Under the pieces are notes generated by a model, which saw nothing but the letters and a program-made list of their open reading frames with translations, made no database searches and was not told the origin of the DNA. 54,757 nt of DNA from a virus (lineage: Duplodnaviria; Caudoviricetes), in the IMG/VR virus record IMGVR_UViG_3300015190_000002, positions 1 to 54,757 of that record; one strand, written 5' to 3'. How positions within the stretch are numbered: position 1 is the stretch's first letter; every line of letters begins with the position of its first letter. The position numbers and the translations under genes were made by a program. Positions 7,566-34,016 of the stretch are shown piece after piece.

Positions 7566-7577
7566 GGTTATCTCCTG

Positions 7578-11053: not shown

Positions 11054-12943
11054 TCATACGGTCAAGCTGACCCCGGACGACATGGCCCGGTACTCGGCCA
11101 GGCGGAGGCTTTCGGATCGCTCGACCATGCCGTCGGCGATGAGCGTTTTCAGCGTTCGCTGGACGGTCCGGTCGGCTACGCCCGTGTTCTGACAGACGCG
11201 CTCCCTGGTGATCCATTGACCCGGGGTACTGTTCAGAGCCCGCATGATTTGCCGCTCAACCTCGGTCAGGTCGCGTCGTTGGGTGCGAAGGTTGAAGCCG
11301 CTGGCGCTGTCGAATGCGAGGTCGAATGGTGCCGGTGTTTGGCCGCGAAACTTGGTGAAGACTACGCGTGCAGACTGGCTAATCTTGCCGCTGAAGTAGA
11401 TCATGACGTCGGAGATGGCAGACTTCGTTCGGCCGCCGTACAGGAGGTCGAGCGGTTCGGATTCAGGGCTAGTAGTACCGTTGCTTTTCCGCGTGTGGTC
11501 GATGACAATGCAGGCTACGTTCATGCCGGACAGCTTCTGCATCAGCGTGGACAAAGGGTCGAGCTCCTTGCTGGAAAAACGGTCGCTTGGCAGAACGCGT
11601 TCACACGCGTCTATGGCGACGATCCCGGGCCACTGCGGAGCTGTTGTGATCGAGTCCATTATAGTGCTGGTACTGTCAGAATTGATGAGTCGGAAGCCCT
11701 GTTGTCGGTTGATGTAGAACGGCAACACGTCCAGGTCGAAATCGTAAATGTCGGCCAACATTTCTACGTACTCGCTGATGACGCTGAGTGGTGAATCCTC
11801 CTCGATGAGTAAGACTGGTCGTTGTTCGACAGCACGTCCACAGAACGGTTTGCCTGCGGCTACGTGCATCAACGCGGCGATGACGAAGATGGTTTTCCCG
11901 ACACCTGGCGATGAGTACACCCAGTGTGTACGTCCGGCCCAGAGCAGGCCGTGAACAATCTCAGCCTGAACTTCAGGGACGGATCGAATCAGCTCGCCCA
12001 ACGTCTGCCAGGCCGACTGAGTGACCTCGCCTGTCTCGACGTTGACTGTTTGCCCGGGCACAGTAGGCCCTAGCCGCGGACTGCTTGAGGCACCCGAGTA
12101 GAACTCGAATTTACCCTCGAGCGCCTTTTCAATACTGCGATCGCGGTAGTCCTGGCGGTCCCACTTCTCGCGCATCAGGCCCGACGAACGGAATAGCGCG
12201 TCCAGTCGCCCGGGATCCGGGCCGGTCCAGAAGGCGAGATGGTTCAGCAGCGCCAGGTCGGCTTCCGACTGGCTCCCGTAGCTCGAGTAGTCGCCGTTCC
12301 AGAGCGCCCAGAACTTGTTGCCGTTCTCGGCACTGCGGGCCTTGAGCAACAGGTCCGCGTCGGCGAGCTGCACCGGCGACCGTAGTGAATGTCCGTTCTG
12401 ACGTTCAGACGGCGGCGGGCCGAACACCTCGAGGTGCCAGGCCGAGAGCTCGTCCTGCCGGTCCTGAATCGTCTCGGGGTACGTCAAGACGTGCTCGCCG
12501 GTGATGGTCAGGAACCGCGCCTGCGAGTAGATTTCGATCTTGCCCTTGCGGCGGCCGTGTGCCGGCAGGGTGCCGCGGATGAAGATCCGCACCCCCGTGC
12601 CGGACGGGCTGATCTCGGTGTACGAGTCGAGCCGCTTCATGATCGACCGGGCCCAGGCGTCGATTCGGCCGCTTTCCGGGTTACGGCACCCGTCAAGGTC
12701 GACGCCCACGTACGGGTCGTCGGCGGCCAGGACGTAGCCAACACCGGAGTAGTTTTCCCGCGCGCAGAAGGCCGCTGCCTCTTCGAACGTCGTCCACGTG
12801 GACGGATCGGTCGTCGAAGCCAGCCGGCCTGTGCGGGCGTTGTACGGCACCTTGGTAGGCTTTGGCTCACCCGGTCGAGGTGTTAGCTTCCAGGCGACCC
12901 ACTGGGGCCGCCTGGCAAGCTCTACGGGTGCCACGATGGTCAC
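11054..12943 (-). CDS. Primase-polymerase (NrS-1-like AEP) fused to RepA/AAA_25-type helicase and C-terminal wHTH
   Basis: QWVAWK..KVPY, GVDLDGC, YTEISPSGTG, IEIYS..RFLTITG, SQSEADLAL; Walker A SPGVGKT; IDHTRK; C-terminal GVADRTVQRTLKTL. Confidence 0.9.
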   Translation of the reverse strand: MTIVAPVELARRPQWVAWKLTPRPGEPKPTKVPYNARTGRLASTTDPSTWTTFEEAAAFCARENYSGVGYVLAADDPYVGVDLDGCRNPESGRIDAWARSIMKRLDSYTEISPSGTGVRIFIRGTLPAHGRRKGKIEIYSQARFLTITGEHVLTYPETIQDRQDELSAWHLEVFGPPPSERQNGHSLRSPVQLADADLLLKARSAENGNKFWALWNGDYSSYGSQSEADLALLNHLAFWTGPDPGRLDALFRSSGLMREKWDRQDYRDRSIEKALEGKFEFYSGASSSPRLGPTVPGQTVNVETGEVTQSAWQTLGELIRSVPEVQAEIVHGLLWAGRTHWVYSSPGVGKTIFVIAALMHVAAGKPFCGRAVEQRPVLLIEEDSPLSVISEYVEMLADIYDFDLDVLPFYINRQQGFRLINSDSTSTIMDSITTAPQWPGIVAIDACERVLPSDRFSSKELDPLSTLMQKLSGMNVACIVIDHTRKSNGTTSPESEPLDLLYGGRTKSAISDVMIYFSGKISQSARVVFTKFRGQTPAPFDLAFDSASGFNLRTQRRDLTEVERQIMRALNSTPGQWITRERVCQNTGVADRTVQRTLKTLIADGMVERSESLRLAEYRAMSSGVSLTV

Positions 12944-14154: not shown

Positions 14155-14913
14155 TCACGCGACGTCCGCTCCGAACAGCACACCCTGGCTCAGCCTGCGT
14201 GCAGCAATGGCGCAATAGCGCTCCTCGATCTCAATGCCGATGGCACGCCGGCCCAAGTCCTTAGCCGCGCGGAGTGTTGTACCGCTGCCCATGAAGGGGT
14301 CGAGCACGCTACCCGCGCCAGTTGTTTCAAGTGCCCGCATTGGCAGACCGAGTGGGAACGGTGCGGGGTGGTTTGTTTCTTGATACTCCATCCCGAGCCG
14401 CCACACATCGCCGGTGCCGCTCGCTGAATGGCTGACCAATTTGAATTCTGGTTTGGCGAACAGCAGTATCCACTCCTGTCGCGTGCAGTAGTTGCGAAGA
14501 TTCACGTCAATGCCGGTGCCACGATCCCAGATGATGATCTGGCGCAACGGGATGCCGAAGTCCATACCCAAGGGCATCCGCAACACGCCGTGCTCAACGC
14601 GCGGCCGGTGGTTGTAGAACACCCCCATCAGGCAGATGCGCCACATTTCCTGTAGCGCCAACCGCTGCTCACGGTCGTATAGATCTTGCGGCACAGCATC
14701 GCCATGGTCCCCGTAGCCATCTCGGAACCGGCTGGCTTTATTGCTTGCTCCCGGCCGATACATGCCTCGACCGTTTCCACCCGGAACCAAACCCATGTTG
14801 TATTGCGGGCTGGTGACGACAATGTCCACTGGTGCGAGTAGCGGCATCACTTCCATACAGTCGCCGTGATAGATCGTGATGCCGCTAGTGGTGTCCTCGT
14901 AGTACGGAGTCAC
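14155..14913 (-). CDS. DNA amino-methyltransferase (N4-C/N6-A, beta class)
   Basis: IYHGDC, VTSPQY (motif IV variant), HPAPFP, VLDPFMGSGTT, AIGIEIEERYC. Confidence 0.9.
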   Translation of the reverse strand: MTPYYEDTTSGITIYHGDCMEVMPLLAPVDIVVTSPQYNMGLVPGGNGRGMYRPGASNKASRFRDGYGDHGDAVPQDLYDREQRLALQEMWRICLMGVFYNHRPRVEHGVLRMPLGMDFGIPLRQIIIWDRGTGIDVNLRNYCTRQEWILLFAKPEFKLVSHSASGTGDVWRLGMEYQETNHPAPFPLGLPMRALETTGAGSVLDPFMGSGTTLRAAKDLGRRAIGIEIEERYCAIAARRLSQGVLFGADVA

Positions 14914-18689: not shown

Positions 18690-18726
18690 AAGAGTGAGGA
18701 ATCAAAGGGGTATGGGAGGCTTACCG

Positions 18727-19653
18727 ATGAACCTCATCGAAGGTGCAGAGTTCCATCAGCGCTGCCTGGAACGGCTCAATCGTTCGGCGATGACCCTGCG
18801 TCTGTATCGCATCTATCAGGATTCGTTTCTTACCTTTCTGCTCGAGCATCAGGTTGATCCCACACTCGACGCGTTGAACCCACAATTTGTGCGTGAGTGG
18901 CAAGCCTGGCTACGGAACAAGTCAACTGGTCGCCGTGGCGGCGTCGTTACCGAGAAGCAAGGCGTCATGACGCTCAAGACGTGGGGCCGGTTTCTCTGGG
19001 AGAACGACGTATACGCCTTCGATCCGCTTGGACGTCTCAAGGTGCCGCGGGTGCAGAAAATACACCGCAAGCCGTTCACCGAGGAGGAAGCACGCCGCCT
19101 CGTTCAGGCAGTTGCCAGTGGTGTCAACCCCATTCGTGACCGAGCCATGCTGCTGCTCCTGCTGGATACCGGCTGTCGCGTGGGCGAGCTGTGTGCGGCC
19201 ACCGTTGCTGATGTCGACCTTGTAGAAGGTTCGATCACGTTCCGTCGTACCAAAAACGGGAGCCCGCGGAAGGTTACGTTCCGCGTAGCCGCCCGCCGTG
19301 ATGGCGGGCCGTCGATGTCAGCACTGCGGAACTGGCTGAAGGTTCGTGAAGCACGCTCCGGCGTCGAGGCCCTGTTCGTTACCCGCGAACGGTTGCCGCT
19401 CTCGACCAGGCGCGTACGCGAGATTTTCAAGGAGCTCGGCGAGAACGCTCGCGTGCCGAATTCTCACCCTCACCGCTGCCGCCACACCAGTGCAAGTCAG
19501 TACCTCGAACAACGACCTGGCGCAGAGCTCCAGTTGCGCTCGAGGTTGGGCCACGTCGCAAAAGACGTGTTGGCCGACTACATAACGTGGTCCGACAAAG
19601 CCCAAGCAGACGCCGCCGACCAGGCGAGCCTATCTCTGAGGTGGAACCTTTGA
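18727..19653 (+). CDS. Tyrosine recombinase/integrase (XerC/D-like)
   Basis: DRAMLLLLLDTGCRVGEL, TKNG, HRCRH, LGH...Y catalytic residues; GGAGG RBS before ATG 18727. Confidence 0.92.
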   Translation: MNLIEGAEFHQRCLERLNRSAMTLRLYRIYQDSFLTFLLEHQVDPTLDALNPQFVREWQAWLRNKSTGRRGGVVTEKQGVMTLKTWGRFLWENDVYAFDPLGRLKVPRVQKIHRKPFTEEEARRLVQAVASGVNPIRDRAMLLLLLDTGCRVGELCAATVADVDLVEGSITFRRTKNGSPRKVTFRVAARRDGGPSMSALRNWLKVREARSGVEALFVTRERLPLSTRRVREIFKELGENARVPNSHPHRCRHTSASQYLEQRPGAELQLRSRLGHVAKDVLADYITWSDKAQADAADQASLSLRWNL

Positions 19654-20627
19654 CGACCGAACTGTTGATCCCTGCTACCCTGAGCCCTTCTATGTCAAAG
19701 TCGAACGCGCGACTTCTGACCGATCAGGAGATAGCCGAGCTCGGGCCGCCTGAAGCAGTGCGGCTCCCGCTCGATCTGGTTGACCCGAACCCGCAGAACC
19801 CACGCGAAGAACTGCTCGAGGTCGACGTGCTGGCCGACAACATTCGTTCGTTCGGTCTGCTTCAGCCGGTCACGGTCAGGCGCGCTGGTGAACGATACGA
19901 GCTCATCGGCGGCCACCGTCGGCGGGCGGCGTTTACTGTGCTCCGGGAACGATTCCCTGAAGACGTCCAGTGGCGCACCATCCCCGCCGTAGTACGAACC
20001 GAGCAGGACGACGACCGCGCATTCCTGATGCTGCTGTCTTCCCAGCTCCACAGCCGCGCTTGGCGCCCACGCGAGGAAGCCGCGGCCCTGGAACGGCTCG
20101 TGATCGGCGGCCGGAACCTGCAACAGATAGGCGAAGCGCTCAATCGCAACGAGTCGTGGGCGAGCAAAAGACTAAGGGTTTACGCCGACAGCGTCCTGTC
20201 TGGCTTCGTCCAGGCCGGTCAAATTCCCGCCTCCGTTGCCGAGGAGCTGTTGGTCGTCCTCGACGTGGACACAAAACGCGACCTGGCCGAGCGAGCCGTA
20301 GCCGAAAAATGGAGTCAGGATCAGGTTCGCGGCCAGGTCCGGGCTCTGCGCCTCGACAAGCAGATTCGTGACATCGCCCGGCGCGCACGCGAACTGCTGG
20401 TCCTGCTTTCGAGCATTGACCCGAGCCGGCTCCCCGACGACGCCGCGGTCGACCTGAACCTGCTACGTCGCCGTATCGTTGCCCTGAGCCGTGCGCCGGT
20501 CATTCCGTCGATCGAGTCGGCTATGGCCGAGGCGAACGTCCGAACGCAGGAGCCCACACGCCGCAGCGGAAAGACGCGTCGACCTCGTCCAGCCGGCTAC
20601 GTGTCAGGAGTCAAGGGGCCGACGTAA
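19650..20627 (+). CDS. parB: ParB/Spo0J-like protein
   Basis: PNPQNPR, GLLQPVTVR, YELIGGHRR, downstream HTH (QQIGEALNRNESWASKRL); TTGA overlap with recombinase stop; start could be ATG 19692. Confidence 0.85.
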   Translation: MTTELLIPATLSPSMSKSNARLLTDQEIAELGPPEAVRLPLDLVDPNPQNPREELLEVDVLADNIRSFGLLQPVTVRRAGERYELIGGHRRRAAFTVLRERFPEDVQWRTIPAVVRTEQDDDRAFLMLLSSQLHSRAWRPREEAAALERLVIGGRNLQQIGEALNRNESWASKRLRVYADSVLSGFVQAGQIPASVAEELLVVLDVDTKRDLAERAVAEKWSQDQVRGQVRALRLDKQIRDIARRARELLVLLSSIDPSRLPDDAAVDLNLLRRRIVALSRAPVIPSIESAMAEANVRTQEPTRRSGKTRRPRPAGYVSGVKGPT

Positions 20628-20655
20628 ACTCGTGGAGGACGAGGCTGTCTGCTCC

Positions 20656-20952
20656 ATGAGCCGTGCCACAGAAGTGCGGGAGCTGGGCGAGTGGAACTGG
20701 TGGTACGCCCGACCCTACAACGTCCTGCACGCCGCTACGGTCGAATACGACCCGCTGTACGACACCGCGGGCGACGGGGTTACCGCCTGCGGCTGGAGGA
20801 CCCGCCTGGCGATCCCCGGTATCTTCTCGCGCATGAGCATGCGCCGCTGCGCTCACTGCTGCCGCCGCCTCGGCTACCCGCAAGGTGTCGGGAGCCCGAA
20901 GAACGACGAGGCCTGCCGCGCCCTTGTAGAACAACGCCTTAGCCATGGGTGA
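20656..20952 (+). CDS. Small Cys/His-rich hypothetical protein
   Basis: LHA...TACG...RCAHC; follows ParB. Confidence 0.5.
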   Translation: MSRATEVRELGEWNWWYARPYNVLHAATVEYDPLYDTAGDGVTACGWRTRLAIPGIFSRMSMRRCAHCCRRLGYPQGVGSPKNDEACRALVEQRLSHG

Positions 20953-22621
20953 CACCGTTACGCTCAGCTGCCCAGCGGTCACGCGAGTTGTCGCCACGAG
21001 TCTGCGGTGTCAGATGGGTCAGGTCACTACAGTCACGGAAACACGAGTCTCGGTGCCCAAGCGTCAGTTTCTTGCCCGTCACCGGATCTCGCCCAATGTC
21101 GCCGTACGCCTGCTTCCACCGCCACCGATGCACGAGCTCTGACTTTTCGTCTTCCTCGAGATAGATGTACCCGTAGCCTTTCGCATCGTGCTTGCCCCGC
21201 CAGCGTAGACAGCCTCGCTCCCGAAATGTCTTCTCCAAGTACGTCTGCATGTTCGTACTCGGCGGCGGTAACGCGGGCAACACCTCCCTCACACGTTCAA
21301 TCGGCACCACCACTATCCGGCGTCTCCCCCCCCAGTCTCCCGGCGCGTCTCCCCTGCTCTCAATTAGATTGGTCACCCCCCGGTAGACACCATTCCTGGG
21401 CTTCGGGAACCGCACCAGCCGCCGAATCTTGCCGTGCGCTACCCAGGCCGTGAAGTCGGCCATGTTGGCCGGGTCGAGTTTCCGATAGTCCAGCCCGAGC
21501 CGGTCCGCGGCGACCCTCTGAAGACTCTTCAGCTCCTGGGCGAAGTACACCCGCGTGGCCGTGTTCGCGCTGATCGCCTCGTCCAGATCTGACTCGGCCT
21601 GCGTCAACGTGTCCACCGCGATCCTGCGGCGGCGTCCTGCGCGGAAGAACGGGTCGGCCAGGTCGATACGCTCCCCGAGCTGCCCGGCTTCCTCGAAGAT
21701 CAGGCGGAATCCTTGCGGTACCAGGCTGGCGCAGCGCTTCGCCTCAGCCAGCCCGAGCGCTACCACGTCGCCGCCTAGACTCGGGTGGTCGAAGCTGTCG
21801 TTGTCGAGCAGCACGGTCTTGCCCTGATTCAACAGGTCGGCCAGGTCGAGGCCGTCCGTGCCGATGCTCGAGCCGAACTGATCGGCCAGGTCGAGAAAGC
21901 GGCTCACCCAACCGGCGCACACTACCTTGAGCTCGCGGTCGGACTGCACCATCTCTTGCAACAGTTCGCCGATAGCCTGCAAAGAGCGTGGCTCACCCCG
22001 CGCGTCGAGGCGGCGGATCACCTCGGCCGTGGCACGTCGGGCCGCGCGCTTCCAGGCGCCAACACCACCCGAACGGAACACTTCGGTCAGTCGCTCGGCT
22101 ACCTCGGTCGGCTCCCCGAGCAGGAAGTTGAAGGGCACACGCGACACGCAGGCCGTCCAGACGACGCCACCCAAGCGCAGCACGGCATCGCGCATCGGGT
22201 CAGACACGTCGGGCGTGACGATAAGCGTGGGCCGTTCCCCGTTGACGCGCACCGTGGCGACACTGGCCGACTTGCCGCCGCCCGTGGGCCCGGACCAGAG
22301 GCAATGCGGCTTGCGCGATCGGTCGACGACCAGACCGTCGATACGCATCAGGTCATGCGGCCTGCGTACCTTCCACCAGAGCCTGCGCCAGAGCGGCGTG
22401 TTGACGGCACGCGGCACGTCGTCGTCGACAGCTCGACGGTCAACCATCACAGGTGAGCGAGTTGCCCGCCAGAACACCAGCAACGCAAATGGGACGACGA
22501 TCGCTAGCCACAACTGATCCTGAGATAATTCCCAGGGAGTTGGGTCAGGCAGGGTCGGGAGAAACGTGCGCCAGGTTGACGCACTTGCCAGGAAGCTGTC
22601 GATTCCCTCGTCCGGGATCAC
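20939..22621 (-). CDS. VirD4/TraD-like type IV coupling ATPase with C-terminal HNH (His-Me finger) domain
   Basis: N-terminal TM; Walker A GPTGGGKS; FNFL; Walker B LIFEEAG, GRRR...TQ...N; C-terminal CLRWRG..DAKGYG...VHRW.W...G...H...C..C..HL...T...N. Confidence 0.8.
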   Translation of the reverse strand: MIPDEGIDSFLASASTWRTFLPTLPDPTPWELSQDQLWLAIVVPFALLVFWRATRSPVMVDRRAVDDDVPRAVNTPLWRRLWWKVRRPHDLMRIDGLVVDRSRKPHCLWSGPTGGGKSASVATVRVNGERPTLIVTPDVSDPMRDAVLRLGGVVWTACVSRVPFNFLLGEPTEVAERLTEVFRSGGVGAWKRAARRATAEVIRRLDARGEPRSLQAIGELLQEMVQSDRELKVVCAGWVSRFLDLADQFGSSIGTDGLDLADLLNQGKTVLLDNDSFDHPSLGGDVVALGLAEAKRCASLVPQGFRLIFEEAGQLGERIDLADPFFRAGRRRRIAVDTLTQAESDLDEAISANTATRVYFAQELKSLQRVAADRLGLDYRKLDPANMADFTAWVAHGKIRRLVRFPKPRNGVYRGVTNLIESRGDAPGDWGGRRRIVVVPIERVREVLPALPPPSTNMQTYLEKTFRERGCLRWRGKHDAKGYGYIYLEEDEKSELVHRWRWKQAYGDIGRDPVTGKKLTLGHRDSCFRDCSDLTHLTPQTRGDNSRDRWAAERNGVTHG

Positions 22622-24945
22622 CGGACGAGGGAGCTGGCTAGAAGCCCAGGCGCCTCGCCGTCCAGCGCAACGTCAGGATCGTTGCCAGTACCGCCATCAA
22701 CGACGGGCCAACCGGCAGGTTGGTTAGCCAGAGCAGCAGATTCAAGCCTTCCATCAGGTAACCCCTTTCGCTCAGCATACCCCCCACCATCCGTGTGCGC
22801 CATCTCGAATTCTTCAGGGGAGTAATCAACGCGAAACGCGACCCGGTGCAGTCCAGCCACCAGCATGGCATCACCGGGTCCGAACCGTTCAATGACCGCG
22901 ATCTGCTCAGGCGTCCAGCGTAGCCGTGCCGATACGTCGCTGATCTCGGCAGGAAACTGCATTCCGTACCACTGGGAGGCGCACTGTGATTGCACCGTCT
23001 TGCCGAGCGCTGAGTCGAGCGCGTCCATCGGTCGTTGCGTCATAAAGAACGACGCTAACTTGATGTGCCGCCCGCGCCGTACGAGGTCTTCTGCTTCGTC
23101 GGCCGCCTCGGCGTCATCCTGAAACGACCACATCTCATCCAGTGCGAACGCGCGCTGCGCCTCATACTCCGCTGCGCGAGCGAACACCGCGCGCTTGAAT
23201 GCTGCCATCGCCTTGCAGCGAGCGAACTTCGAGAGCTCGGCGATGTTGAGCACGATAGCCGGCGGCAGTTTTCTATAGGGGATGTCCCGAAGCGCAACCG
23301 CCAGATCCATCTCCCACGAATCGCGGTGCAGCTTGCGAATCTCGCCACCGACATATCTAGCCCAGCGTCCGTACTCGCCGTCCTTCGATTCCTCAGCCTG
23401 GTCGACCATGAAGCATTCGCGTAGCACGCCCGCGAACAACGCCCGCGACGTCCATACCTTGACACCGAACCCTTTGCCGCCGCCGCTGGCCGCGTACACG
23501 GCCACGTTCGGATTCGGTAGCTGCGGTCGGCGAAACGGCGTCCAGGCGATGCGACGGTTGCCGTACAGCGTGCGGCCCCACGGCACGGCTCCCTGCAAGC
23601 CAAGCTCGCTGGCCGACCACGGGTAGGCGCGACTCAAGCTCGAGGTATCCAATCGGTGCGACCGCTTGAGCAGTTGGCCCCCAAGTGTCGCTGAGCACGC
23701 CAGCACGCCTTCGGTGTGCTCCCACCGCAGCGGGCCCGCCTGACCGCCGAACTCGCCGACGATCTGCTCCACTCGGCGTCGACGCATCGTGAGCTGGGGC
23801 CGAGTGCTCGCACGTACGAGGTAAAGCATCTCCACCTCGAACACACGCTCCTCATTCCGCTCGAGTGAGTTGAGCGTGTCGTCCAGTTGTTCAATAGCAA
23901 CCTTGCGCTGGCGCGTCTCGGACGTCGTCGTGAGCCGTTGTAAGCGCATCTCAAGATCGCGGCGCACCTTCAGCATGTCTAGGGGCTTGATGATCTGAAC
24001 CACGTCGACCGGTTGCGAACCGTCGTACAGCGAGGACATGAAGTCGGTGGTGACCGACGACGGCCAGCGCTGGTGAGCGATCGTGCTCATCCATTCGCCG
24101 TCTGCATGCAGACCGTCCGATTCGACTCTGATGGTGCTAGGACCGATACGCTTACCCCGTCGCGGCTTCGACGTCCAGCCAGAATGAATCGTGTCGGCCA
24201 GGTCGTCATCCTCGAGCCTGCGGCCAGGCAGGCTCGCGCGAGCCAACGCGCCGTCGATATCTTCGGCGTAGCGCGTGAGTTGGTCGTCATCGTCAGCGCT
24301 GATGCTGAGCAGTCGGCGTCGTTCGACTTCACCACCTGCCGCCGTACTGGCCCGAAGGTAGCCGGCAACGATTGACCCATTTCGGTTGGGATGCTCGCTC
24401 ATCGCTTTCAGCGTCGCGTTCAAGTCGACAGGCACGGCGCGTATCGTGGTCTGGATCGGACAGGGCAGGCCGTCGAGAAACGCCGCCCAGCGGGCGCGCT
24501 CAACGGATCGCGCTGCGTCAGATGCCATCCGCATACTTACGCTGGGCATCTCCCAGATAGCAATGCTCTTACCGTGTGCGCGCGCGATGTTGCGCTCCAC
24601 AGTCGGATGCCCAAGCAGCTCATCTATTTCCTTCGGCCCGAGCAACCGTGACGACGCACGATACTTCGCCCAGGAGATCAGGCCGTGCTCCACGGGCGGC
24701 GACAGTGGCAATGCCATAATCGCAGCGCCCACAACCGGCGCAGCCCAGGCAACGGCAGTGCTGAGCGGTAGAAACGCGGGGTCAATTGCGCTCCCGAGCG
24801 CCGGTCCTACCGCAGGCACTAGCATCCCAGCCGCGGGACCGATGAACACCCCGCTTGAGAAGAGCAGCGTCCACTGCCGAATCGTCCACGCGCCCAAGCC
24901 GTCGGCGGTGTCCAGGTGCGTCGGGACAGGGTGGCGGTCAACCAT
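22618..24945 (-). CDS. PrgI(VirB3-like)-VirB4 fusion conjugation ATPase
   Basis: N-terminal VPTHLD..D..G.WTIRQ plus 2 TMs (PrgI-like); NPN..V.AASGGGKG Walker A; FALDEMW; RRGRH....F.TQRP.D. Confidence 0.85.
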   Translation of the reverse strand: MVDRHPVPTHLDTADGLGAWTIRQWTLLFSSGVFIGPAAGMLVPAVGPALGSAIDPAFLPLSTAVAWAAPVVGAAIMALPLSPPVEHGLISWAKYRASSRLLGPKEIDELLGHPTVERNIARAHGKSIAIWEMPSVSMRMASDAARSVERARWAAFLDGLPCPIQTTIRAVPVDLNATLKAMSEHPNRNGSIVAGYLRASTAAGGEVERRRLLSISADDDDQLTRYAEDIDGALARASLPGRRLEDDDLADTIHSGWTSKPRRGKRIGPSTIRVESDGLHADGEWMSTIAHQRWPSSVTTDFMSSLYDGSQPVDVVQIIKPLDMLKVRRDLEMRLQRLTTTSETRQRKVAIEQLDDTLNSLERNEERVFEVEMLYLVRASTRPQLTMRRRRVEQIVGEFGGQAGPLRWEHTEGVLACSATLGGQLLKRSHRLDTSSLSRAYPWSASELGLQGAVPWGRTLYGNRRIAWTPFRRPQLPNPNVAVYAASGGGKGFGVKVWTSRALFAGVLRECFMVDQAEESKDGEYGRWARYVGGEIRKLHRDSWEMDLAVALRDIPYRKLPPAIVLNIAELSKFARCKAMAAFKRAVFARAAEYEAQRAFALDEMWSFQDDAEAADEAEDLVRRGRHIKLASFFMTQRPMDALDSALGKTVQSQCASQWYGMQFPAEISDVSARLRWTPEQIAVIERFGPGDAMLVAGLHRVAFRVDYSPEEFEMAHTDGGGYAERKGLPDGRLESAALANQPAGWPVVDGGTGNDPDVALDGEAPGLLASSLVR

Positions 24946-25206
24946 CTAGCCGCCCGTCGCACCGCCAAGCGCAAAGATTTTCTGGGCGCCAGACACGATC
25001 ACCTTGGCACCGCCAGAGAGCAAGAAGCCCCAGAAGATCGTCGTGAACCAGCCGCGGACGTGCTGCTGGACACCACGCCCGCCAATGTTCGTGAGAATGA
25101 TGAGCCCGGCGATCACCGTTATTAGCAGTGCTACTCCGAATACCGCACCAGCAAGATCGTTTGCCAGTGTGAGCGCCGCCGCTCCGATTGGTGCTCCAAT
25201 ACCCAT
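24946..25206 (-). CDS. Pilin-like (VirB2/TrbC-like) small membrane protein
   Basis: 86 aa, two hydrophobic helices separated by a short basic loop, immediately upstream of VirB3/4. Confidence 0.6.
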   Translation of the reverse strand: MGIGAPIGAAALTLANDLAGAVFGVALLITVIAGLIILTNIGGRGVQQHVRGWFTTIFWGFLLSGGAKVIVSGAQKIFALGGATGG

Positions 25207-25222: not shown

Positions 25223-26083
25223 CTAGACGAACCGTCCGCGCGCGACGCCGACTGTGGACTTGACGACTCCCATCAATCCGCCGCCCTTGATATCGGCCAG
25301 CCACGTAGCCATGTCGTAAGCCAGTAACAAGACACCTACGCCGAGTGCGATGCCTCCCCATGTTGAGCCGCTCGGCCCGGCTATAGCGGCCGCGAGCCGC
25401 AAGCAGATCACCACGAGCACCTGGCCGACCAGAAGCCCGATAAAAGTTGTCGTCCACCTCCGTGCATACGGCTGGCCGCCAGGCAACACCCAGCACATCA
25501 TCGCTAGCGGGCCGAGAATCAAGAGCACGTCCAGATACACAAGCCGATAGGCCATCCTCCAGAGAAGCCTGAAGCCGAGCACGATCCACACGATGAGCAG
25601 GACCAGGCGCGTGATCGGGTCCATGTCACCGCCAGGTACGCTCGGTAGTGGCGCGCCGATTATCGCCCCGTCAATTGTGTTGATTAGGTCGATCGAAAAG
25701 ATGTAAACGCGCGGGATGCTGAGCACCAGCAGAACCCCGAGAAACATGCGGGCGGCGTACTCGCCAGGTGCCCACGACCAGCCAAAGTATTCACGTCCGA
25801 GCGCGGCCAATCCCGCCAGCACACAACTGAGCGTGATGACACCAAACACCGCCGGCTCCCAAGATTTGTACAGGTCGGCTACGGCGCCCAGGTTGTAGGT
25901 CATCTCAGGCGGGGTACGAGTGATGAACTGGATCGGCGACGAGTTGGTGGTCGAGGCAATCGACTCCCATACGGCGTTGCTGCGGCCGGTCAGGAGCTCA
26001 GCCAGCCCGTTGAGCACGGCCGTAACAATGGGTACGACACTATCGAGCAGCCACCGCGTGAGCGCACTCGTGTCAGTGAGCAT
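25223..26083 (-). CDS. VirB6/TrbL-like polytopic conjugation membrane protein
   Basis: 5-6 TMs; R...LDVLLILGPLAMMCWVLP...ARRW...F...Q pattern typical of TrbL/VirB6. Confidence 0.8.
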   Translation of the reverse strand: MLTDTSALTRWLLDSVVPIVTAVLNGLAELLTGRSNAVWESIASTTNSSPIQFITRTPPEMTYNLGAVADLYKSWEPAVFGVITLSCVLAGLAALGREYFGWSWAPGEYAARMFLGVLLVLSIPRVYIFSIDLINTIDGAIIGAPLPSVPGGDMDPITRLVLLIVWIVLGFRLLWRMAYRLVYLDVLLILGPLAMMCWVLPGGQPYARRWTTTFIGLLVGQVLVVICLRLAAAIAGPSGSTWGGIALGVGVLLLAYDMATWLADIKGGGLMGVVKSTVGVARGRFV

Positions 26084-26781
26084 CAGCTTGGCGTTCCTGG
26101 CTTGGGTGCTGATGGCGGGGACGTGTCGGCAAAGATGGCCGCTCGCACGTTTCCACGGCTGATAGCCATGCCGTTTATCTGTCCCGCGGTCATCCAGTCG
26201 GAGCCGCCGCGGAGGTCTGTGCCGCTGGTGCCGACGCGGTACACGGGGATGCCGTTCACGTTGGTTCTCACCCCATCCACGAAGTAGTAATGGCCGGGTG
26301 TGTCGAGGATGACCGGCCGACCCGCCGCGGCCTCAGCCGTGACATTGGCCCAGTTGATCGGCTCGAGTCGGCTAGGTAGATTGAGTCTGGCGAGCAACTG
26401 CTGCTCGGCGGCTACGCCGTACATGCCCGAGTTGGCGTCCCACAGTCCGCGAGTCGCTACGCTCATGACCTGGCCGATGGACAGATCCACTCCCCACCAG
26501 CGGCCAAAAGCAATGGCGGCAGCCGGGCCGCACGCGGCATAGGCGTCAATTGGGTTGAGCCCAAGTGCGAACTGCGACGGTCGGCCACCACCAAGAGATA
26601 AGCCCGGTGCAGCCGGGATGGTGGCGACAGGGCCGATGAATGCAGAGCCACCGTCAAGTACCTGGGGCGACGCCGCAGGCGCAATGATGAGCAGCGGCAA
26701 GAGGATAGGCAGAATCGTCATGCCGGCACTGACGGCAACGACGATCACCACCATGACGATCACGATGCCGACAATTACCAT
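26083..26781 (-). CDS. Membrane-anchored C39-like cysteine peptidase (putative cell-wall hydrolase, VirB1 analogue)
   Basis: N-terminal TM; SQF...ACGPAAA catalytic Cys; GRPVIL...GHYYFVDG catalytic His. Confidence 0.7.
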   Translation of the reverse strand: MVIVGIVIVMVVIVVAVSAGMTILPILLPLLIIAPAASPQVLDGGSAFIGPVATIPAAPGLSLGGGRPSQFALGLNPIDAYAACGPAAAIAFGRWWGVDLSIGQVMSVATRGLWDANSGMYGVAAEQQLLARLNLPSRLEPINWANVTAEAAAGRPVILDTPGHYYFVDGVRTNVNGIPVYRVGTSGTDLRGGSDWMTAGQINGMAISRGNVRAAIFADTSPPSAPKPGTPS

Positions 26782-27569
26782 CAGGCGGTAGCCCCGGTCG
26801 GCTGCAAGCGGCTCGGTTCAACCGAACGAATATCGAGCATGCCGTCAGGCAATGGCGGCCCAGGCGTGGCAGGCTTCGGCGGCTTCAGAGGAACGACAGG
26901 CGCAGGCTCGGCAACAGCGACCGGCATAGCCGTCGGTGTTCGAGTCGGCATGATGGTTGGTCGCACCGTTGGCGTCGAAGTTGGCCGTACGGTCGGTGTG
27001 TTTGTCGGAGATGCTGTAGCGGTCACCGTGGGGGTAGGAAATGGCGTTGCCGTGTTGGTCGGCGCCGCGGTGGGAGCACTGGTCGGCAATTCGGGAGCAG
27101 GCATATAGATGATCTGCGGCGGCGGCGCGGGCGCCTGCTGAATGACCGTGATAATCACGGGCGTCTGAGTAGGCGCCAGAGTAGGAATCTGGGTAGGCTC
27201 AGGTGTCGGCGTCTCGGTCGGCTGCTCAATTGGACACGGCACGGGTGCGCCGTTCTCATCGAACACGATCCCGTTCTCATCGGTGAACCAGCACGGCTCG
27301 GGGATCGAGGTCGCTAGGGGGGTAGCAGCCGGTACCTCTGGAGCAGCTGTGGGGGTAACCGTCGGCGTCGGCGAGGGCGTCCATGTCGGCGTCAGCGTTG
27401 ATGTCAGCGTTGGTGTCTCGGTTGGACACTCGGGCCGTCGCTGCGCCCGGCAATTCGCTAACTCGTCGAGCGCATGCTGTGTCGCCGTCGCCGAAGCGCC
27501 TGCGGACTCGGCGCGCGCCGTACCTGGCAGGCTCAGCAGCAGTACGGCTGCACCCACCAGGAGCCGCAC
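26781..27569 (-). CDS. Secreted Pro/Thr-rich protein
   Basis: Signal peptide ending ARA; two Cys pairs; extensive TPT repeats. Confidence 0.7.
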   Translation of the reverse strand: MRLLVGAAVLLLSLPGTARAESAGASATATQHALDELANCRAQRRPECPTETPTLTSTLTPTWTPSPTPTVTPTAAPEVPAATPLATSIPEPCWFTDENGIVFDENGAPVPCPIEQPTETPTPEPTQIPTLAPTQTPVIITVIQQAPAPPPQIIYMPAPELPTSAPTAAPTNTATPFPTPTVTATASPTNTPTVRPTSTPTVRPTIMPTRTPTAMPVAVAEPAPVVPLKPPKPATPGPPLPDGMLDIRSVEPSRLQPTGATA

Positions 27570-27750: not shown

Positions 27751-27837
27751 GCTGGTTACACTAAACTTACACCGTGGTTATAATCAACCGCAAGGGTGAC
27801 TATCAACACACCTTGGCGTAAACTGCGTTACATCTTG

Positions 27838-28053
27838 GTGCGCCTTACTCGTCTCAAGCGGCGACGTCTTGAGAAGGGCTGGACGCTCCGCGACTTGCGA
27901 GATGCGACCGGGTTCAGCGTCAGGACGTTGAGCCTGCTCGAGCGCGGCGAGACGGAACCTCGGCCGGCGACGATCAGCCGCCTCGCTACTGTGCTCGAGT
28001 GCCGCCCCGTCGACTTGATGGAGCCCGAGTCGCCGTCGCACTTTAGCGACTAA
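27838..28053 (+). CDS. XRE-family HTH regulator divergent from the tra operon
   Basis: LKRRRLEKGWTLRDLRDATGFSVRTLSLLERGETEPR..TISRLA. Confidence 0.85.
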   Translation: MRLTRLKRRRLEKGWTLRDLRDATGFSVRTLSLLERGETEPRPATISRLATVLECRPVDLMEPESPSHFSD

Positions 28054-28817: not shown

Positions 28818-29648
28818 TCAGGAGTGTGCGATTCCGTGCTGGTCCGCGACCGTACGGATACCGTTGACGAGGTTTCTGACTGCCGACGATGAAGCCTTCT
28901 GTTTTGCTACCGGCTTGAGCAAGTCGCCGCCGATGAAGCCGATGGCGCTGACCAACCCGTCCCGATCGGACGCGATCGCAGCGCATGGATCCGGTGTGGT
29001 CGGTGGATCTGACGGCTGGCCGAGCTCAGCGGCTTCGCCGTCTGAGAGCACGTTCAGATCAAGCCCACCAACCCCCCCGACAGACGTAGTGCCTCGAAAC
29101 TGCTTGATTCGAGCGTCCCGCCAGCCTCCGTACGGGACAAATCCTACCGCCGCGTCGGCCACCTGATCGTAGTTGGCATCCCAAAGCTCGCGGTCGGCGA
29201 AGGCGTTACTGTTGCCCATGTAGCGACGGTCAGCCCAGAACCAGCGGCCCGAGTAGATACCCGTCTTCTCGCCGCTGGTGGTGACGAACGCATCGCACTC
29301 AACGAGCGCCGCGGTCACCTTCGCCTCACACGTCGCCTGGTCGTATTTGACTGCTGCCGTGTCCTCGACATCGAGCCAGAGCTGCCGAATGGTCAGGCCA
29401 GACAGCAGGCCTAGCTTCCGTTGAGTGTCGGTGACGTCAAGGTCGAACCAGAGCCACACGTACGCGTCGACCGTCAGGCCGCCGTCCAGACACGCCTGAA
29501 TTTGATTGCGCGTCACGCCCGCCGGAAATCCCGGCGGCGGGTCGACAGCCTGGACAATGACGACCTCGACGCCCGCGGCCTTGAGTGCCTGTACTGCGTC
29601 TGGTGTGAGCGGGTCGGTAAAGTTCGAGCAGTCTACGGCAAGCGTCAC
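28818..29648 (-). CDS. GH25 muramidase endolysin
   Basis: AVDCSNF, LWLDVED (DxE), GIYSG..FW, LWDANY, IKQF, LDLN. Confidence 0.85.
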   Translation of the reverse strand: MTLAVDCSNFTDPLTPDAVQALKAAGVEVVIVQAVDPPPGFPAGVTRNQIQACLDGGLTVDAYVWLWFDLDVTDTQRKLGLLSGLTIRQLWLDVEDTAAVKYDQATCEAKVTAALVECDAFVTTSGEKTGIYSGRWFWADRRYMGNSNAFADRELWDANYDQVADAAVGFVPYGGWRDARIKQFRGTTSVGGVGGLDLNVLSDGEAAELGQPSDPPTTPDPCAAIASDRDGLVSAIGFIGGDLLKPVAKQKASSSAVRNLVNGIRTVADQHGIAHS

Positions 29649-31565: not shown

Positions 31566-34016
31566 TCACCCGATCACCTGAGCGAACGAGCGGCCGCCAC
31601 TGCGCCCTGTAGAGAATCCGACTCCGGTTCCGGTCCCGGTCCCGGTGCCAGTACTTACTGATGCCGCCGTTCCAGCCCAGAACGAACTAATCTGGTATTC
31701 TCCGATCCACTTCACATTTGTAAGACCGTTCAAAGAGGCGGGCGCAGGAATTTGTGTATCGCGTGCGCCGTTTCCGAACACATAGTATTCTCCAATTACA
31801 TCAGCTTGACTTCCGCCCACTCCACCACCACTCGTATACACTTTGCCGTCACCGCAAAGTACTTGCAACGAGTAGCTAAAGTGCCTGGGAATCTGAACTA
31901 TAGAAAGCGGTAACGGATAGCCAGGATTCTTCCAGCGCGCCGGCGTATTGACGTGCCCAAAAAATTGTGAACCCTGAGTAAAACCGTTCCCTAATTGTCC
32001 AAGATCATTCAGGCCCATCCCCCATATGTCGCCGTTGCTATCAAGCGCGATCGTATTCATGTAACCCGCGCCTGCGTCAACTACATTCTGATAGGGAAGC
32101 GTGAACCATCCTATGCGCGGGGGGACGGTTGGGATGCCGAGCTGACCACCCAGGCCATCCGTGGCACCGGATACGGCTCCGTTACCCATCATCGTTCCAT
32201 CAGTCATCACGGCAAGCAAACAACCCCAGCCCAAAATCACCTTGCGCGCCGTGCCCGGAGGAGTGTAGTCGTTCCACCACGAGGTCGGGAACACCGGACC
32301 AAAAAAGCCTGCTGTTTGCACCGTTCCATTTGTGTACAAGACAATCAGGTACGAACCGTCTGAATCGTAATCCGCAACTCCGGTTGCGACAATCATCGGT
32401 GAGAGTACAAACAACTGTGTTAGTGGACTAAATCCAAATGCCGCAAGCTGGTTGCTTCCCCACCCGTAGAGTGTTCCGTCTGAAGAAAGAGCAAAGCACG
32501 AAGCACCGGCAGTAGCGCGAACAATATTGCTCAATCCCGGTACTGGTGTTGGGGTATAGACGTAGGACCACGAACGCGTACCATCGCCAGCTTGGCCGTC
32601 AGCGGTTGTTCCTGTCATATAGACCCTGCCATCGAGGCCAACAAACATAGCTGAAACGCCGCCAGTCGCATCGGTGCAACTAGCGGAAGTCAGGGGTACA
32701 GATGTACCAAGAACGAGCCCAGGTACTTCAGGCAGGGGTGTGGGACGGGGAATAGCGAACCCCGGAAGTTTTCCTATTCCGCTCGTGCCGTAATTGACCC
32801 CCCAGTAGTAGGTCGATGTGACAGGCGCAAGCCAGTACGAAAGGTATGTACCACTGCCGGCAAGATAGGCACCCCCCGAAGCAACAAGTACGGTCGGGTT
32901 ACTCTGGCCTACAGGTAGGCTTTCACCTGTAGACGTCCACGCGTCTGAGGACGGGGTGTACCGATAAATCAGATTTGAAGTGCTAACGATTGCGCCGGTT
33001 GACGATGCATACGGTGAGCCGAAAGCATAAAGATTGCCACCTACGAAGGCGAGCGGCCCAGAAGCATAGAACGGAGCTGGCGCGAGCACGGTCCATTTGT
33101 CTGTCCGCCAGTTATACCGCTGTGTTGTGGCATATGGATTGGTGGAGAAGGGACCAGCCGGCGCGACCTCATAAATCGAGTTGTCGCCGTCAAGTGCTGT
33201 CTGCGGACCAACGAGGCCGCTGGTGATCGCTCGAATATACCCGTCGGCAAGCTTCGTCCATGTGCCTGTGCCAGTGTCATAGCGCCAGGAACCTATTTGA
33301 GTGCCGCCGTCCGGGTCAATGTCGAGCAGGTACATTCGCCCGTAGCTGTCGACCAGTGGGCGATACAGAGCCTCCAGCGTGCGAAGGATTGGCGCAGCCG
33401 AGCTCGAGGCACCGGCTCGACCCGGACTGCCCGAGGCAGGTATGGCCGATATGGCACTGGTGTACCACCCGCCCCCCGAGAACAGAACGCCATCTGAGAA
33501 GTCCCATGCAGTCGCGCCGCCAGGGAACGCGTCCTGGCCTATCAGGATGTCCTGCCCGCCTGCGGCAGTTGTTCCGCCGATGACCCACATCCGATTCAGC
33601 TCGTCGCCGTAGTACCAGAAGTTGCTGCGCCCGCCGTACAGGCTCGGGCCGGCTCCCCACAGCGGCATTGCGGCGAGTGCAGACCACGCATTCGTGGACG
33701 AGTTGTAGTAGGCAGCGCGCGAGGTCTGCGCAAAGGTGCCGCCGGCATCCGGATACGCCGTTCCGCCGATATAGATGATGCCGCCTGACCCGTCGATGTG
33801 CAGCGCAGAGCCCTCTTGGTACTGGGGCGCGTTCGCTAGCGTTGTCCACGTCTGCGTGGCCGGGTCGTAACGTTCTGGTTGACGGTTAGCCACATCTGGG
33901 CTCGATGTGGTGCCCGTTCCGCCGAATATGGTGAGGCGCTTCGCTGAGTCGAGCCCCATCAAAAACGGCCCGCGATCACGCCTGTACGTGAACGAGGGGA
34001 GGACCGTTATCGACAC
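31566..34016 (-). CDS. Putative receptor-binding protein: Kelch-like propeller plus RCC1-like propeller
   Basis: GG...ERYDP.T.TWT.LA.P Kelch repeats in the N-half; DG.VY..G...GQ.G.G and GDIWGMG.N..GQLGNG RCC1 repeats in the C-half. Confidence 0.7.
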   Translation of the reverse strand: MSITVLPSFTYRRDRGPFLMGLDSAKRLTIFGGTGTTSSPDVANRQPERYDPATQTWTTLANAPQYQEGSALHIDGSGGIIYIGGTAYPDAGGTFAQTSRAAYYNSSTNAWSALAAMPLWGAGPSLYGGRSNFWYYGDELNRMWVIGGTTAAGGQDILIGQDAFPGGATAWDFSDGVLFSGGGWYTSAISAIPASGSPGRAGASSSAAPILRTLEALYRPLVDSYGRMYLLDIDPDGGTQIGSWRYDTGTGTWTKLADGYIRAITSGLVGPQTALDGDNSIYEVAPAGPFSTNPYATTQRYNWRTDKWTVLAPAPFYASGPLAFVGGNLYAFGSPYASSTGAIVSTSNLIYRYTPSSDAWTSTGESLPVGQSNPTVLVASGGAYLAGSGTYLSYWLAPVTSTYYWGVNYGTSGIGKLPGFAIPRPTPLPEVPGLVLGTSVPLTSASCTDATGGVSAMFVGLDGRVYMTGTTADGQAGDGTRSWSYVYTPTPVPGLSNIVRATAGASCFALSSDGTLYGWGSNQLAAFGFSPLTQLFVLSPMIVATGVADYDSDGSYLIVLYTNGTVQTAGFFGPVFPTSWWNDYTPPGTARKVILGWGCLLAVMTDGTMMGNGAVSGATDGLGGQLGIPTVPPRIGWFTLPYQNVVDAGAGYMNTIALDSNGDIWGMGLNDLGQLGNGFTQGSQFFGHVNTPARWKNPGYPLPLSIVQIPRHFSYSLQVLCGDGKVYTSGGGVGGSQADVIGEYYVFGNGARDTQIPAPASLNGLTNVKWIGEYQISSFWAGTAASVSTGTGTGTGTGVGFSTGRSGGRSFAQVIG

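What the first reader, a model, noticed from the sequence alone, without database searches (positions are those of the whole stretch)
20939..22621. Coupling protein fused to an HNH-type nuclease domain, with no relaxase in the genome
Seen: after the TM and P-loop ATPase (GPTGGGKS, LIFEEAG) and a ~60-aa linker, the last ~95 aa read CLRWRGKHDAKGYG...VHRWRW...LGHRDSCFRDCSDLTHLTPQTRGDN. This matches the phage HNH_3 pattern with the central Asn replaced by Asp. I see no HUH/MOB relaxase ORF. Established: coupling proteins normally recruit a relaxase-DNA complex. Inference: the tethered nuclease could nick or cut the DNA at the channel (relaxase-free transfer), or act only as a DNA-binding substrate receptor.
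Basis: partly seen in the sequence, partly recalled or inferred. Interest (0 to 1): 0.82.

Follow-up and report, generated by a model that had tools for sequence, protein, structure and literature searches.

The report
Phage coupling ATPase fused to nuclease
An uncultured soil tailed phage carries a small conjugation-type secretion gene set whose membrane-anchored DNA-pump ATPase is permanently fused to a DNA-cutting HNH-type domain, which suggests an untested, relaxase-free way of handling or moving DNA.

Summary
ORF 20939-22621(-) encodes 560 aa: an N-terminal TM helix, a P-loop ATPase whose best structural and language-model neighbours are VirD4/TrwB-type coupling proteins, a ~40-aa disordered Pro-rich linker, and a ~100-aa zinc-type His-Me finger (HNH_3 / I-HmuI / I-PpoI-like) domain. 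The window is a near-complete temperate tailed-phage genome. The gene ends a T4SS-like operon, directly after a VirB4-like ATPase. The fusion is not a read-through accident. 100 of 104 homologues keep the H523/H536/N545 triad. A second ATPase subfamily (29% identity) has the same architecture. Tails have been swapped between subfamilies. VirB4 lies directly upstream in 8 of 9 assessable loci, including six viral genomes of CheckV completeness 96-100%. No canonical relaxase family was found in this genome (6 families) or in five related genomes (3 families), but HMM sensitivity is limited. This protein and three relatives have Gly instead of the usual Asp before the catalytic His. Function is inferred only; the best guess is a coupling motor with a tethered nickase that replaces the relaxase. 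The scan met this architecture before on other DNA (e1-5892227, e1-6270634, e1-6226852). No description was found in the held literature.

The parts
20939..22621 (-). Whole gene: 560-aa membrane-anchored T4CP-like ATPase fused to a His-Me (HNH_3-like) domain. It is the last gene of the T4SS-like block. Its GTG start overlaps the VirB4 stop in GTGA.
22463..22522 (-). N-terminal transmembrane helix (residues 34-53)
   Evidence: AF2 helix 34-53. A hydrophobic 19-mer with KD>=1.6 is present in 82 of the 89 family members that have a complete N-terminus.
21392..22414 (-). ATPase core (residues 70-410), including an inserted helical bundle at about residues 171-252
22268..22291 (-). Walker A GPTGGGKS (residues 111-118)
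   Evidence: K117 in 101 of 104 members, the other 3 being gaps
21683..21706 (-). Walker B region RLIFEEAG (residues 306-313)
   Evidence: E310 in 103 of 104 and E311 in 104 of 104 members
21266..21391 (-). Disordered Pro-rich linker (residues 411-452), ending in the conserved ALPPPS motif
   Evidence: pLDDT 40-48. Mean identity to the query is 26%. L451, P452 and P454 are kept in at least 90% of members.
20954..21256 (-). C-terminal His-Me finger (HNH_3 / I-HmuI / I-PpoI-like) domain, residues 456-556. Catalytic candidates are H523 and N545. Zinc-ligand candidates are C471, C527, C531 and H536. G522 replaces the family's usual Asp.
22618..24945 (-). VirB4-like ATPase, 775 aa, with N-terminal hydrophobic segments
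   Evidence: NF045971 conju_CD1110 E 3.5e-20 and AAA_10 over its cut-off. It lies directly upstream of the fusion gene in 8 of 9 assessable loci.
24946..25206 (-). Small 86-aa hydrophobic protein (VirB2/VirB3-position protein)
   Evidence: sequence; no family hit
25223..26083 (-). 286-aa polytopic membrane protein (VirB6-position protein)
   Evidence: Sequence. Homologues at 28-31% identity in G001, G003 and G004, and 48% in L037. No family hit.
26083..26781 (-). 232-aa protein with an N-terminal TM anchor and a possible papain-like (C39_2-type) peptidase or murein-hydrolase domain
   Evidence: ESM Atlas lead only: scores 0.85-0.88, TM 0.55-0.61. No Pfam hit.
26781..27569 (-). 262-aa protein with a signal peptide and long Pro/Thr-rich stretches
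   Evidence: Sequence. The PT repeat hit is sub-threshold.
27796..28053 (+). Divergent 85-aa Xre-type HTH protein at the head of the module
   Evidence: HTH models in PADLOC. Homologues beside the module in L002, L005, L028 and L037.

Best explanation
Shown: the gene encodes a membrane-anchored, VirD4/TrwB-like type IV coupling-protein ATPase. A flexible ~40-aa linker joins it to a zinc-stabilised His-Me finger (HNH_3-like) nuclease domain. It is the terminal, probably translationally coupled gene of a minimal monoderm-style T4SS-like operon: a secreted PT-rich protein, an anchored peptidase-like protein, a polytopic membrane protein, a small TM protein and VirB4. The operon sits between the lysis cassette and the recombinase/ParB genes of a temperate soil siphophage. 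Inferred mechanism: the ATPase assembles at the membrane at the base of the phage-encoded channel. The tethered HNH domain binds and nicks (or cuts) the DNA substrate, doing the job a relaxase does in conjugation. The motor then feeds the freed strand or end into the channel. This would give the (pro)phage a virion-independent, cell-contact route of DNA transfer. The fast-evolving, exchangeable tail would set which DNA is recognised. Without a covalent relaxase-type intermediate, the molecule would have to be closed in the recipient by other phage functions, such as the Xer-like recombinase or a PD-(D/E)XK-based recombination; this last step is speculation.
For: - Domain identities.
- Context: a VirB4-like gene (NF045971, E 3.5e-20) lies directly upstream in 8 of 9 assessable independent loci, and the fusion gene is always last in the block.
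- The phage is real: TerL, portal, major head protein, tape measure, primase-polymerase, integrase, ParB and a GH25 lysin are present, and CheckV completeness is 96%.
- The module recurs in five further viral records of CheckV completeness 97-100% (58-78 kb, three with terminal repeats). These are otherwise mosaic and lack this window's TerL and capsid genes.
- The fusion is old and selected. H523+H536+N545 are kept in 100 of 104 homologues. Distant fused relatives at E 1e-82 to 1e-19 exist, and 4 of 10 of them pass Pfam HNH_3. A 29%-identical ATPase subfamily has the same architecture beside a VirB4 that is 49% identical to this one.
- Tails have been exchanged between ATPase subfamilies while the architecture stayed: tail 64-67% identical against ATPase 29-31%.
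- The catalytic and zinc-ligand candidates are kept although the tail averages only 38% identity, against 70% for the ATPase. This argues for a working active site with changing specificity.
- No relaxase family matched in this genome or in five related genomes.
- The best structural matches for the tail include I-HmuI; that I-HmuI is a strand-specific nickase is recalled knowledge, not a result of any call.
Against: - Nothing shows nuclease activity, ATPase activity, channel assembly, expression or transfer.
- An HNH enzyme cannot re-ligate as a relaxase does, so the recipient-side step has no known basis.
- This protein and three relatives carry Gly instead of Asp before His523. In I-HmuI the equivalent Asp is a metal ligand (recalled), so this copy may be weakened, although I-PpoI-type enzymes lack that Asp (recalled).
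- PDB fold comparison does not separate TrwB from VirB4-CTD or DndH-C, which are tied within 1 Z.
- No T4CP Pfam family matches the ATPase.
- No conserved cis-site (oriT- or clt-like) was found near the module.
- The relaxase negatives have limited sensitivity: Pfam HNH_3 in six frames also misses the tail itself.
- The host is unknown.
Confidence: 0.4

Rival explanations
1. Recognition module only. The His-Me domain acts as a sequence-reading DNA-binding head on a flexible tether, like the gamma domain of FtsK or the C-terminal winged helix of Streptomyces TraB. It loads the hexameric motor on double-stranded phage DNA, which is pumped uncut and without a relaxase.
Confidence: 0.17
2. Exclusion or weapon. 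The module is not for exporting the phage's own DNA. It acts on other DNA at the membrane, for example by degrading incoming phage or plasmid DNA (superinfection exclusion, anti-conjugation), or by breaking down and releasing host DNA.
Against: PADLOC gave no meaningful hit for either ATPase or for the membrane proteins; the only row was mad8, E 0.0079, with 0 stretches. A full channel set (VirB4, polytopic protein, secreted and anchored proteins) is more than exclusion needs. The nearest language-model and structure clusters are conjugative T4CPs, not defence HerA proteins.
Confidence: 0.15
3. DNA uptake. The T4SS-like set works inwards, as ComB does in Helicobacter or the archaeal Ced system (recalled). 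This would give the lysogen a DNA-import machine in which the HNH domain trims incoming double-stranded DNA.
For: Relaxase-free T4SS-related DNA importers exist (recalled). No relaxase family is present. The nuclease is tethered to a membrane motor.
Against: Known importers of this kind lack a VirD4-type coupling protein (recalled), whereas this motor is T4CP-like. No competence-type genes were seen among the ORFs scanned.
Confidence: 0.08
4. Accident. A homing HNH endonuclease gene landed behind the coupling-protein gene and is read through, so the fusion has no joint function.
For: HNH_3 genes are mobile in phage genomes (general knowledge). Most of the 66,808 profile hits are proteins matched by the tail alone.
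Against: The fusion is kept in 100 of 104 homologues and in a 29%-identical ATPase subfamily. The linker motif ALPPPS is conserved. The approximately 117-aa 'stand-alone' matches include the linker motif and look like fragments of fused genes.
Confidence: 0.02

Closest known systems
VirD4/TrwB-type type IV coupling proteins (TrwB of plasmid R388, PDB 1e9r/1e9s/1gki)
   Different: No T4CP Pfam family matches by sequence. There is one TM helix, not two (the two in TrwB are recalled). No relaxase partner is present. The protein carries a C-terminal His-Me nuclease domain on a long linker. It is encoded by a tailed phage.
Streptomyces TraB / FtsK-type conjugative translocases, and the plasmid-phage pZL12 (Zhong et al. 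2010, seen only as cited in PMC3583192 and PMC4487206)
   Same: Transfer is relaxase-free, by a membrane motor with a C-terminal DNA-recognition domain. pZL12 is an element that is both a plasmid with a tra function and a phage (passages).
I-HmuI and I-PpoI His-Me finger homing endonucleases; Pfam HNH_3 (PF13392) and zf-His_Me_endon (PF05551)
   Different: Only the roughly 100-aa catalytic core is present, without the extra DNA-binding domains of I-HmuI. It is tethered to an ATPase. This copy fails the Pfam models. Gly replaces the Asp before the His.
HerA-nuclease assemblies (HerA-NurA; SIR2-HerA and DUF4297-HerA defence complexes)
   Different: There the nuclease is a separate subunit of a soluble complex. 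Here it is fused to a membrane-anchored motor inside a T4SS operon. PADLOC gave no hit.
Phage-ICE tandems (Sci Adv 2026, PMC13651849; only the search listing and the start of the abstract were seen)
   Same: Phage and conjugation functions are linked on one transferable unit.
   Different: Those are accretions of a separate ICE and phage with ordinary conjugation genes. Here a minimal T4SS set is a built-in part of the phage genome and has no relaxase.

Membership tests
Type IV coupling protein (VirD4/TrwB/TraG/TraD) | N-terminal membrane anchor | tested here: met
   AF2 helix 34-53. Hydrophobic 19-mer in 82 of 89 members with a complete N-terminus.
Type IV coupling protein (VirD4/TrwB/TraG/TraD) | P-loop NTPase with Walker A and Walker B | tested here: met
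   GPTGGGKS 111-118 and LIFEEAG 307-313. K117 in 101 of 104, E311 in 104 of 104.
Type IV coupling protein (VirD4/TrwB/TraG/TraD) | TrwB-like fold with an inserted all-alpha domain | tested here: inconclusive
   TrwB is the top Foldseek hit and the Atlas neighbours are T4CP clusters. By VIA Z, however, VirB4-CTD 25.8, TrwB 25.6 and DndH-C 25.2 are tied.
Type IV coupling protein (VirD4/TrwB/TraG/TraD) | Match to a T4CP sequence family (PF02534, PF12696, PF10412) | tested here: not met
   No such hit for P0001 at E<=0.1, nor for 10 distant fused relatives at E<=0.01.
Type IV coupling protein (VirD4/TrwB/TraG/TraD) | Encoded with VirB4 and other channel genes | tested here: met
   VirB4-like gene directly upstream in 8 of 9 assessable loci. 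The polytopic protein is present in most.
Type IV coupling protein (VirD4/TrwB/TraG/TraD) | Works with a relaxase-DNA complex | tested here: not met
   No relaxase family in six frames: 6 families in this genome and 3 families in five related genomes. Sensitivity is limited.
Type IV coupling protein (VirD4/TrwB/TraG/TraD) | Hexamer formation and DNA-dependent ATPase activity | not testable with these tools
   Needs biochemistry.
His-Me finger / HNH_3 nuclease | beta-beta-alpha-metal fold | tested here: met
His-Me finger / HNH_3 nuclease | Conserved His at the end of strand 1 and Asn/His in the helix | tested here: met
   H523 in 102 of 104. N545 in 100 of 104, plus one His.
His-Me finger / HNH_3 nuclease | Asp immediately before the catalytic His (metal ligand in I-HmuI, recalled) | tested here: not met
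   Gly522 in this protein. Family counts: Asp 93, Gly 4, Gln 4, Asn 2, gap 1, of 104.
His-Me finger / HNH_3 nuclease | Score over Pfam PF13392's gathering threshold | tested here: not met
   No Pfam HNH hit for this tail at E<=10. Relatives do pass: 44 of 104 precomputed and 4 of 10 distant ones. PHROG 826 hits this tail at 2.3e-13.
His-Me finger / HNH_3 nuclease | Metal-dependent DNA nicking or cleavage | not testable with these tools
   Needs an enzyme assay.
FtsK/SpoIIIE/TraB translocases | FtsK-type motor domain | tested here: inconclusive
HerA-type defence ATPases | Match to a known defence-system model | tested here: not met
   PADLOC gave only mad8, E 0.0079, with 0 stretches.
Conjugative relaxases (MOBP, MOBT, MOBF, MOBQ, MOBV, MOBH) | A relaxase domain anywhere in the genome | tested here: not met
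   Atypical relaxases, for example tyrosine-recombinase-like ones, are not excluded.

The most novel reading that the evidence does not exclude
A lineage of temperate soil phages spreads not only as particles but also by cell contact through a phage-encoded minimal T4SS. In this reading the coupling ATPase carries its own HNH nickase, which makes it a relaxase-independent form of conjugation. The exchangeable HNH tails act as the specificity determinants that decide which DNA is exported.
Probability: 0.25. Interest if true: 0.9.

Novelty: new variant of a known kind. Interest (0 to 1): 0.72.

Why it matters
Conjugation through T4SS channels is thought to need a relaxase that nicks the DNA and pilots it. 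A conserved coupling motor with its own tethered nuclease, in genomes without a recognisable relaxase, would be a different solution to substrate processing. Its home in tailed phages would further blur the line between phages and conjugative elements, and would add a particle-independent route of spread for soil phages. The protein is small, modular and well modelled, so the central questions can be tested directly: whether it nicks DNA, where, and whether the tail sets specificity.

Tried and rejected
- **Deposited records.** tblastn of the protein against deposited phages and plasmids gave no match. The VirB4 neighbour gave one weak phage hit and seven weak plasmid hits at 21-25% identity, from Chloroflexota, Actinomycetota, Bacillota and a haloarchaeon. 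These are too distant to name a host.
- **Host.** Scans of 185,579 species genomes found no relative of the fusion and only 26-33% identical recombinases. TerL and the primase-polymerase are at most 35% identical to those of deposited phages of many phyla. The host remains unknown.
- **PDB by sequence.** Nothing useful turned up.
- **Defence reading.** PADLOC gave nothing.
- **Search for a cis-site.**
  - Repeats near the gene were unremarkable.
  - The one strong k-mer cluster in the genome (10915-11042) travels with the replication module, not the T4SS module. I read it as an origin and rejected it as oriT or clt.
  - The perfect hairpin over the VirB4/fusion junction is not conserved in 8 relatives, so I rejected it as a family feature.
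- **Expression.** No RNA holder was listed. Only one soil-metagenome DNA run, possibly the source, holds the stretch.
- **Unfused forms.** I did not run the 'shorter' or 'longer' length searches. Within 308-980 aa, P0065 (421 aa) ends at the linker, and P0121 and P0130 match the ATPase only. They may be truncated, frameshifted or truly unfused.
- **Literature.** Searches listed no paper whose title or abstract start concerns a T4CP-HNH fusion or a built-in T4SS in tailed phages. I judged these papers from the listings (titles and abstract starts); the only one of them I opened was PMC12282955. This covers only the held library. I read passages only of PMC12282955, PMC3583192 and PMC4487206. 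The primary pZL12 paper (PMC2897331) is not held. I did not open supplements.
- **Not used.** Complex prediction was not used, because I claim no specific protein-protein contact.
- **Model coordinates.** These were not available to scripts, so the zinc-site geometry was not measured.
Full report
**What is there.** The window is a whole IMG/VR virus record of 54,757 bases with CheckV completeness 96%. It is a real tailed, temperate phage:

| Coordinates | Strand | Feature |
|---|---|---|
| 51930-53195 | - | large terminase |
| 50352-51923 | - | portal |
| 46599-47651 | - | major head protein |
| 38068-40845 | - | tape measure |
| 31566-34016 | - | RCC1/Kelch propeller protein |
| 28818-29648 | - | GH25 lysin |
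| 11054-12943 | - | primase-polymerase/helicase |
| 14155-14913 | - | DNA methylase |
| 9870-10559 | - | PD-(D/E)XK nuclease |
| 18694-19653 | + | Xer-like tyrosine recombinase |
| 19587-20627 | + | ParB |

The ORF of the finding, 20939-22621(-), 560 aa, is present as described.

**The protein.**
- AlphaFold2 with 104 aligned homologues gives a confident model (mean pLDDT 87.5). It has a TM helix at 34-53, an ATPase core at about 70-410, a disordered linker at 411-452 and a compact domain at 456-556.
- By sequence, Pfam gives only a sub-threshold P-loop hit (AAA_10, E 0.048).
- By structure, TrwB of R388 is the best Foldseek match (E 3e-10).
- The ESM Atlas places residues 60-415 next to clusters carrying TrwB_AAD_bind, TraG-D_C and T4SS-DNA_transf, mostly from Actinomycetota and Bacillota. 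Feature scores are 0.96-0.98 and structural TM is 0.77-0.82.
- The protein has an N-terminal anchor, which is a family feature in 82 of 89 members. A separate VirB4 lies next door. I therefore read the ATPase as a coupling-protein-type motor. I do not file it as a member of a named T4CP sequence family, because that test was not met.

**The tail.**
- The tail alone folds with pLDDT 94.4.
- Foldseek gave only weak matches: I-PpoI at E 0.05 and I-HmuI at TMq 0.50.
- PHROG families annotated 'HNH endonuclease' match at 2.3e-13 and 6e-9.
- This copy fails the Pfam HNH models. Among relatives, 44 of 104 carry PF13392, and 4 of 10 distant fused relatives pass its threshold.
- The conserved pattern is C471, W474, Y483, H498, (D)H523, C527, C531, H536 and N545. 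Mapped from memory on I-PpoI, this reads as a general-base His, a metal-binding Asn and a Cys/His zinc site.

**Conservation of the fusion.**
- A database search returned 104 proteins including the query, at 44-77% identity and 316-695 aa.
- In their alignment, 100 of 104 keep H523+H536+N545. P0016, P0065 and P0080 have gaps or a mismatch at these columns (one, P0065, is only 421 aa), and P0100 has His in place of N545.
- Mean identity to the query is 70% for the ATPase core, 38% for the tail, 26% for the linker and 16% for the N-terminus.
- An exhaustive profile search found 66,808 proteins at E<=0.001. Most are matched by the tail only. Distant full-length fused relatives also appear at E 1e-82 to 1e-19.
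- One such subfamily occurs in a sixth viral genome, L037/G005. Its ATPase-HNH is 29% identical to this one, yet its VirB4 is 49% and its polytopic membrane protein 48% identical to the window's.
- L037's tail is 64-67% identical to the tails of family members whose ATPases are only 29-31% identical to L037's ATPase. Three of its six closest ATPase relatives have tails with no detectable similarity to L037's, and the other three only 30-45%.
- Partners and tails have therefore been shuffled by recombination while the architecture and its place next to VirB4 persisted. This is strong evidence for selection on the fused form.

**Context.**
- The gene is the last of a minus-strand block. The block comprises a 262-aa signal-peptide Pro/Thr-rich protein, a 232-aa anchored protein, a 286-aa polytopic protein, an 86-aa TM protein and the VirB4-like ATPase. 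The 232-aa protein has a lead to C39_2-type peptidase or murein hydrolase.
- The VirB4-like ATPase matches NF045971 at E 3.5e-20.
- A divergent HTH gene heads the block.
- The VirB4 stop and the fusion gene's start overlap in GTGA.
- I examined 10 loci and L037.
  - Dropped beforehand: L029 and L033, which are the same contigs as L003 and L004, and L034-L036, which are under 1.8 kb.
  - L030 has no upstream DNA.
  - L032 duplicates L031.
- Of the 9 independent assessable loci, 8 have a VirB4-like gene directly upstream. L026, with only about 1.1 kb upstream, showed none.
- The five related viral records are 58-78 kb with CheckV completeness 97-100%, and three have terminal repeats. Three of the four tested have a tape-measure match. 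None of those four has this window's TerL or capsid, nor a PF03237 match.
- A proteome comparison shows mosaic sharing. Only the fusion gene (49-63% identity) and VirB4 (20-25%) are common to G001-G004.

**Relaxase.**
- Six-frame searches with six relaxase families found nothing at E<=1 in this genome.
- Three families found nothing at E<=0.1 in five related genomes.
- Caveat: the same method with PF13392 also misses the tail, so a divergent relaxase could escape.
It is Xer-like. It is present in 4 of 5 related genomes and absent from G002, so it is not an obligate partner of the module, on the evidence of one genome.

**Mechanism.**
- Shown: the domain identities, the architecture, the conservation and the context.
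- Inferred: a membrane motor at a phage-encoded channel with a tethered nuclease that processes the DNA substrate.
- I rate the relaxase-substitute nickase reading at 0.4.
- The rivals are a recognition-only head (0.17), exclusion or weapon (0.15), DNA uptake (0.08) and accident (0.02).
- Against the main reading: there is no activity or expression data (one search listed no RNA run), no cis-site was found, no re-ligation chemistry is known for HNH enzymes, and this copy has Gly522.

**Known and new.**
- The closest known kinds are VirD4/TrwB coupling proteins, relaxase-free TraB-type transfer in Streptomyces, and HNH_3/I-HmuI-type nucleases. The Streptomyces examples include the plasmid-phage pZL12, known to me only from passages in PMC3583192 and PMC4487206.
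- Six searches of the held literature listed no paper on a coupling protein fused to an HNH domain or on a built-in T4SS in tailed phages. I judged them from titles and abstract starts.
- The scan itself has met the same architecture on other DNA (e1-5892227 followed up; e1-6270634 and e1-6226852 noted). It has also met analogous HNH-FtsK fusions in other soil phages. Those are AI notes, not independent evidence.
- I class the finding as a new variant of a known kind and score interest 0.72.

Noticed in passing
window 10915-11042: An iteron-like array of 8 exact copies of TGTCGCGAT (all the copies in the genome; 0 of 100 shuffles reach 8) plus one degenerate copy. All are in one orientation, in three triplets at 10-11 bp spacing. 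The array lies next to an AT-rich palindrome (about 10871-10894) and just past the 3' end of the primase-polymerase/helicase gene. G004, which shares that gene, has 6 copies of a different 9-mer in the same place. Probably the replication origin.
   Followed up: partly
window 22604-22632: A perfect 12-bp inverted repeat with a 5-nt loop covers the VirB4 stop and the fusion gene's GTG start. The 61-nt window folds at -30.5 kcal/mol, z -3.9. It is not conserved at the same junction in 8 related loci. It may enforce translational coupling here, or it may mark a recombination joint.
   Followed up: yes
window 22618-24945 compared with L037 5530-7908: The window's VirB4 (775 aa) is 49% identical to that of G005 but only 20-25% identical to those of G001-G004. 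The fusion protein shows the opposite pattern: 29% against 49-63%. The two ATPase genes have therefore been recombined between phage lineages.
   Followed up: yes
window 3-1763 and 53970-54755, minus strand: Open reading frames run off both ends of the record. The frames do not join by simple circular closure according to my hand arithmetic on the coordinates, which no tool checked, so the record may lack some bases.
   Followed up: no
window 18694-19653: The Xer-like tyrosine recombinase is 76-79% identical in G001 and G003, far more conserved than most other shared genes of these mosaic phages. ParB next to it is shared only with L028, at 54%.
   Followed up: partly
window 20491-20952 (+): A small Cys-rich (zinc-ribbon-like) ORF follows ParB. 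It converges on the fusion gene and overlaps its 3' end by 14 nt.
   Followed up: no
window 26083-26781 (-): The 232-aa anchored module protein has C39_2-type papain-like peptidase or 'murein hydrolase' clusters as its nearest Atlas neighbours (scores 0.85-0.88, TM 0.55-0.61). It could be the cell-wall-opening enzyme of the channel. This is a lead only.
   Followed up: partly
window 31566-34016 (-): An 816-aa protein with Kelch and RCC1 beta-propeller repeats lies among the tail genes. It is a possible receptor-binding protein.
   Followed up: no
window 1763-8327 (-): Several large ORFs (228, 476, 735, 257 and 249 aa) have no Pfam match, and the 476- and 735-aa ones also have no PHROG match. 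The 249-aa ORF is 62% identical to an ORF of G002.
   Followed up: no
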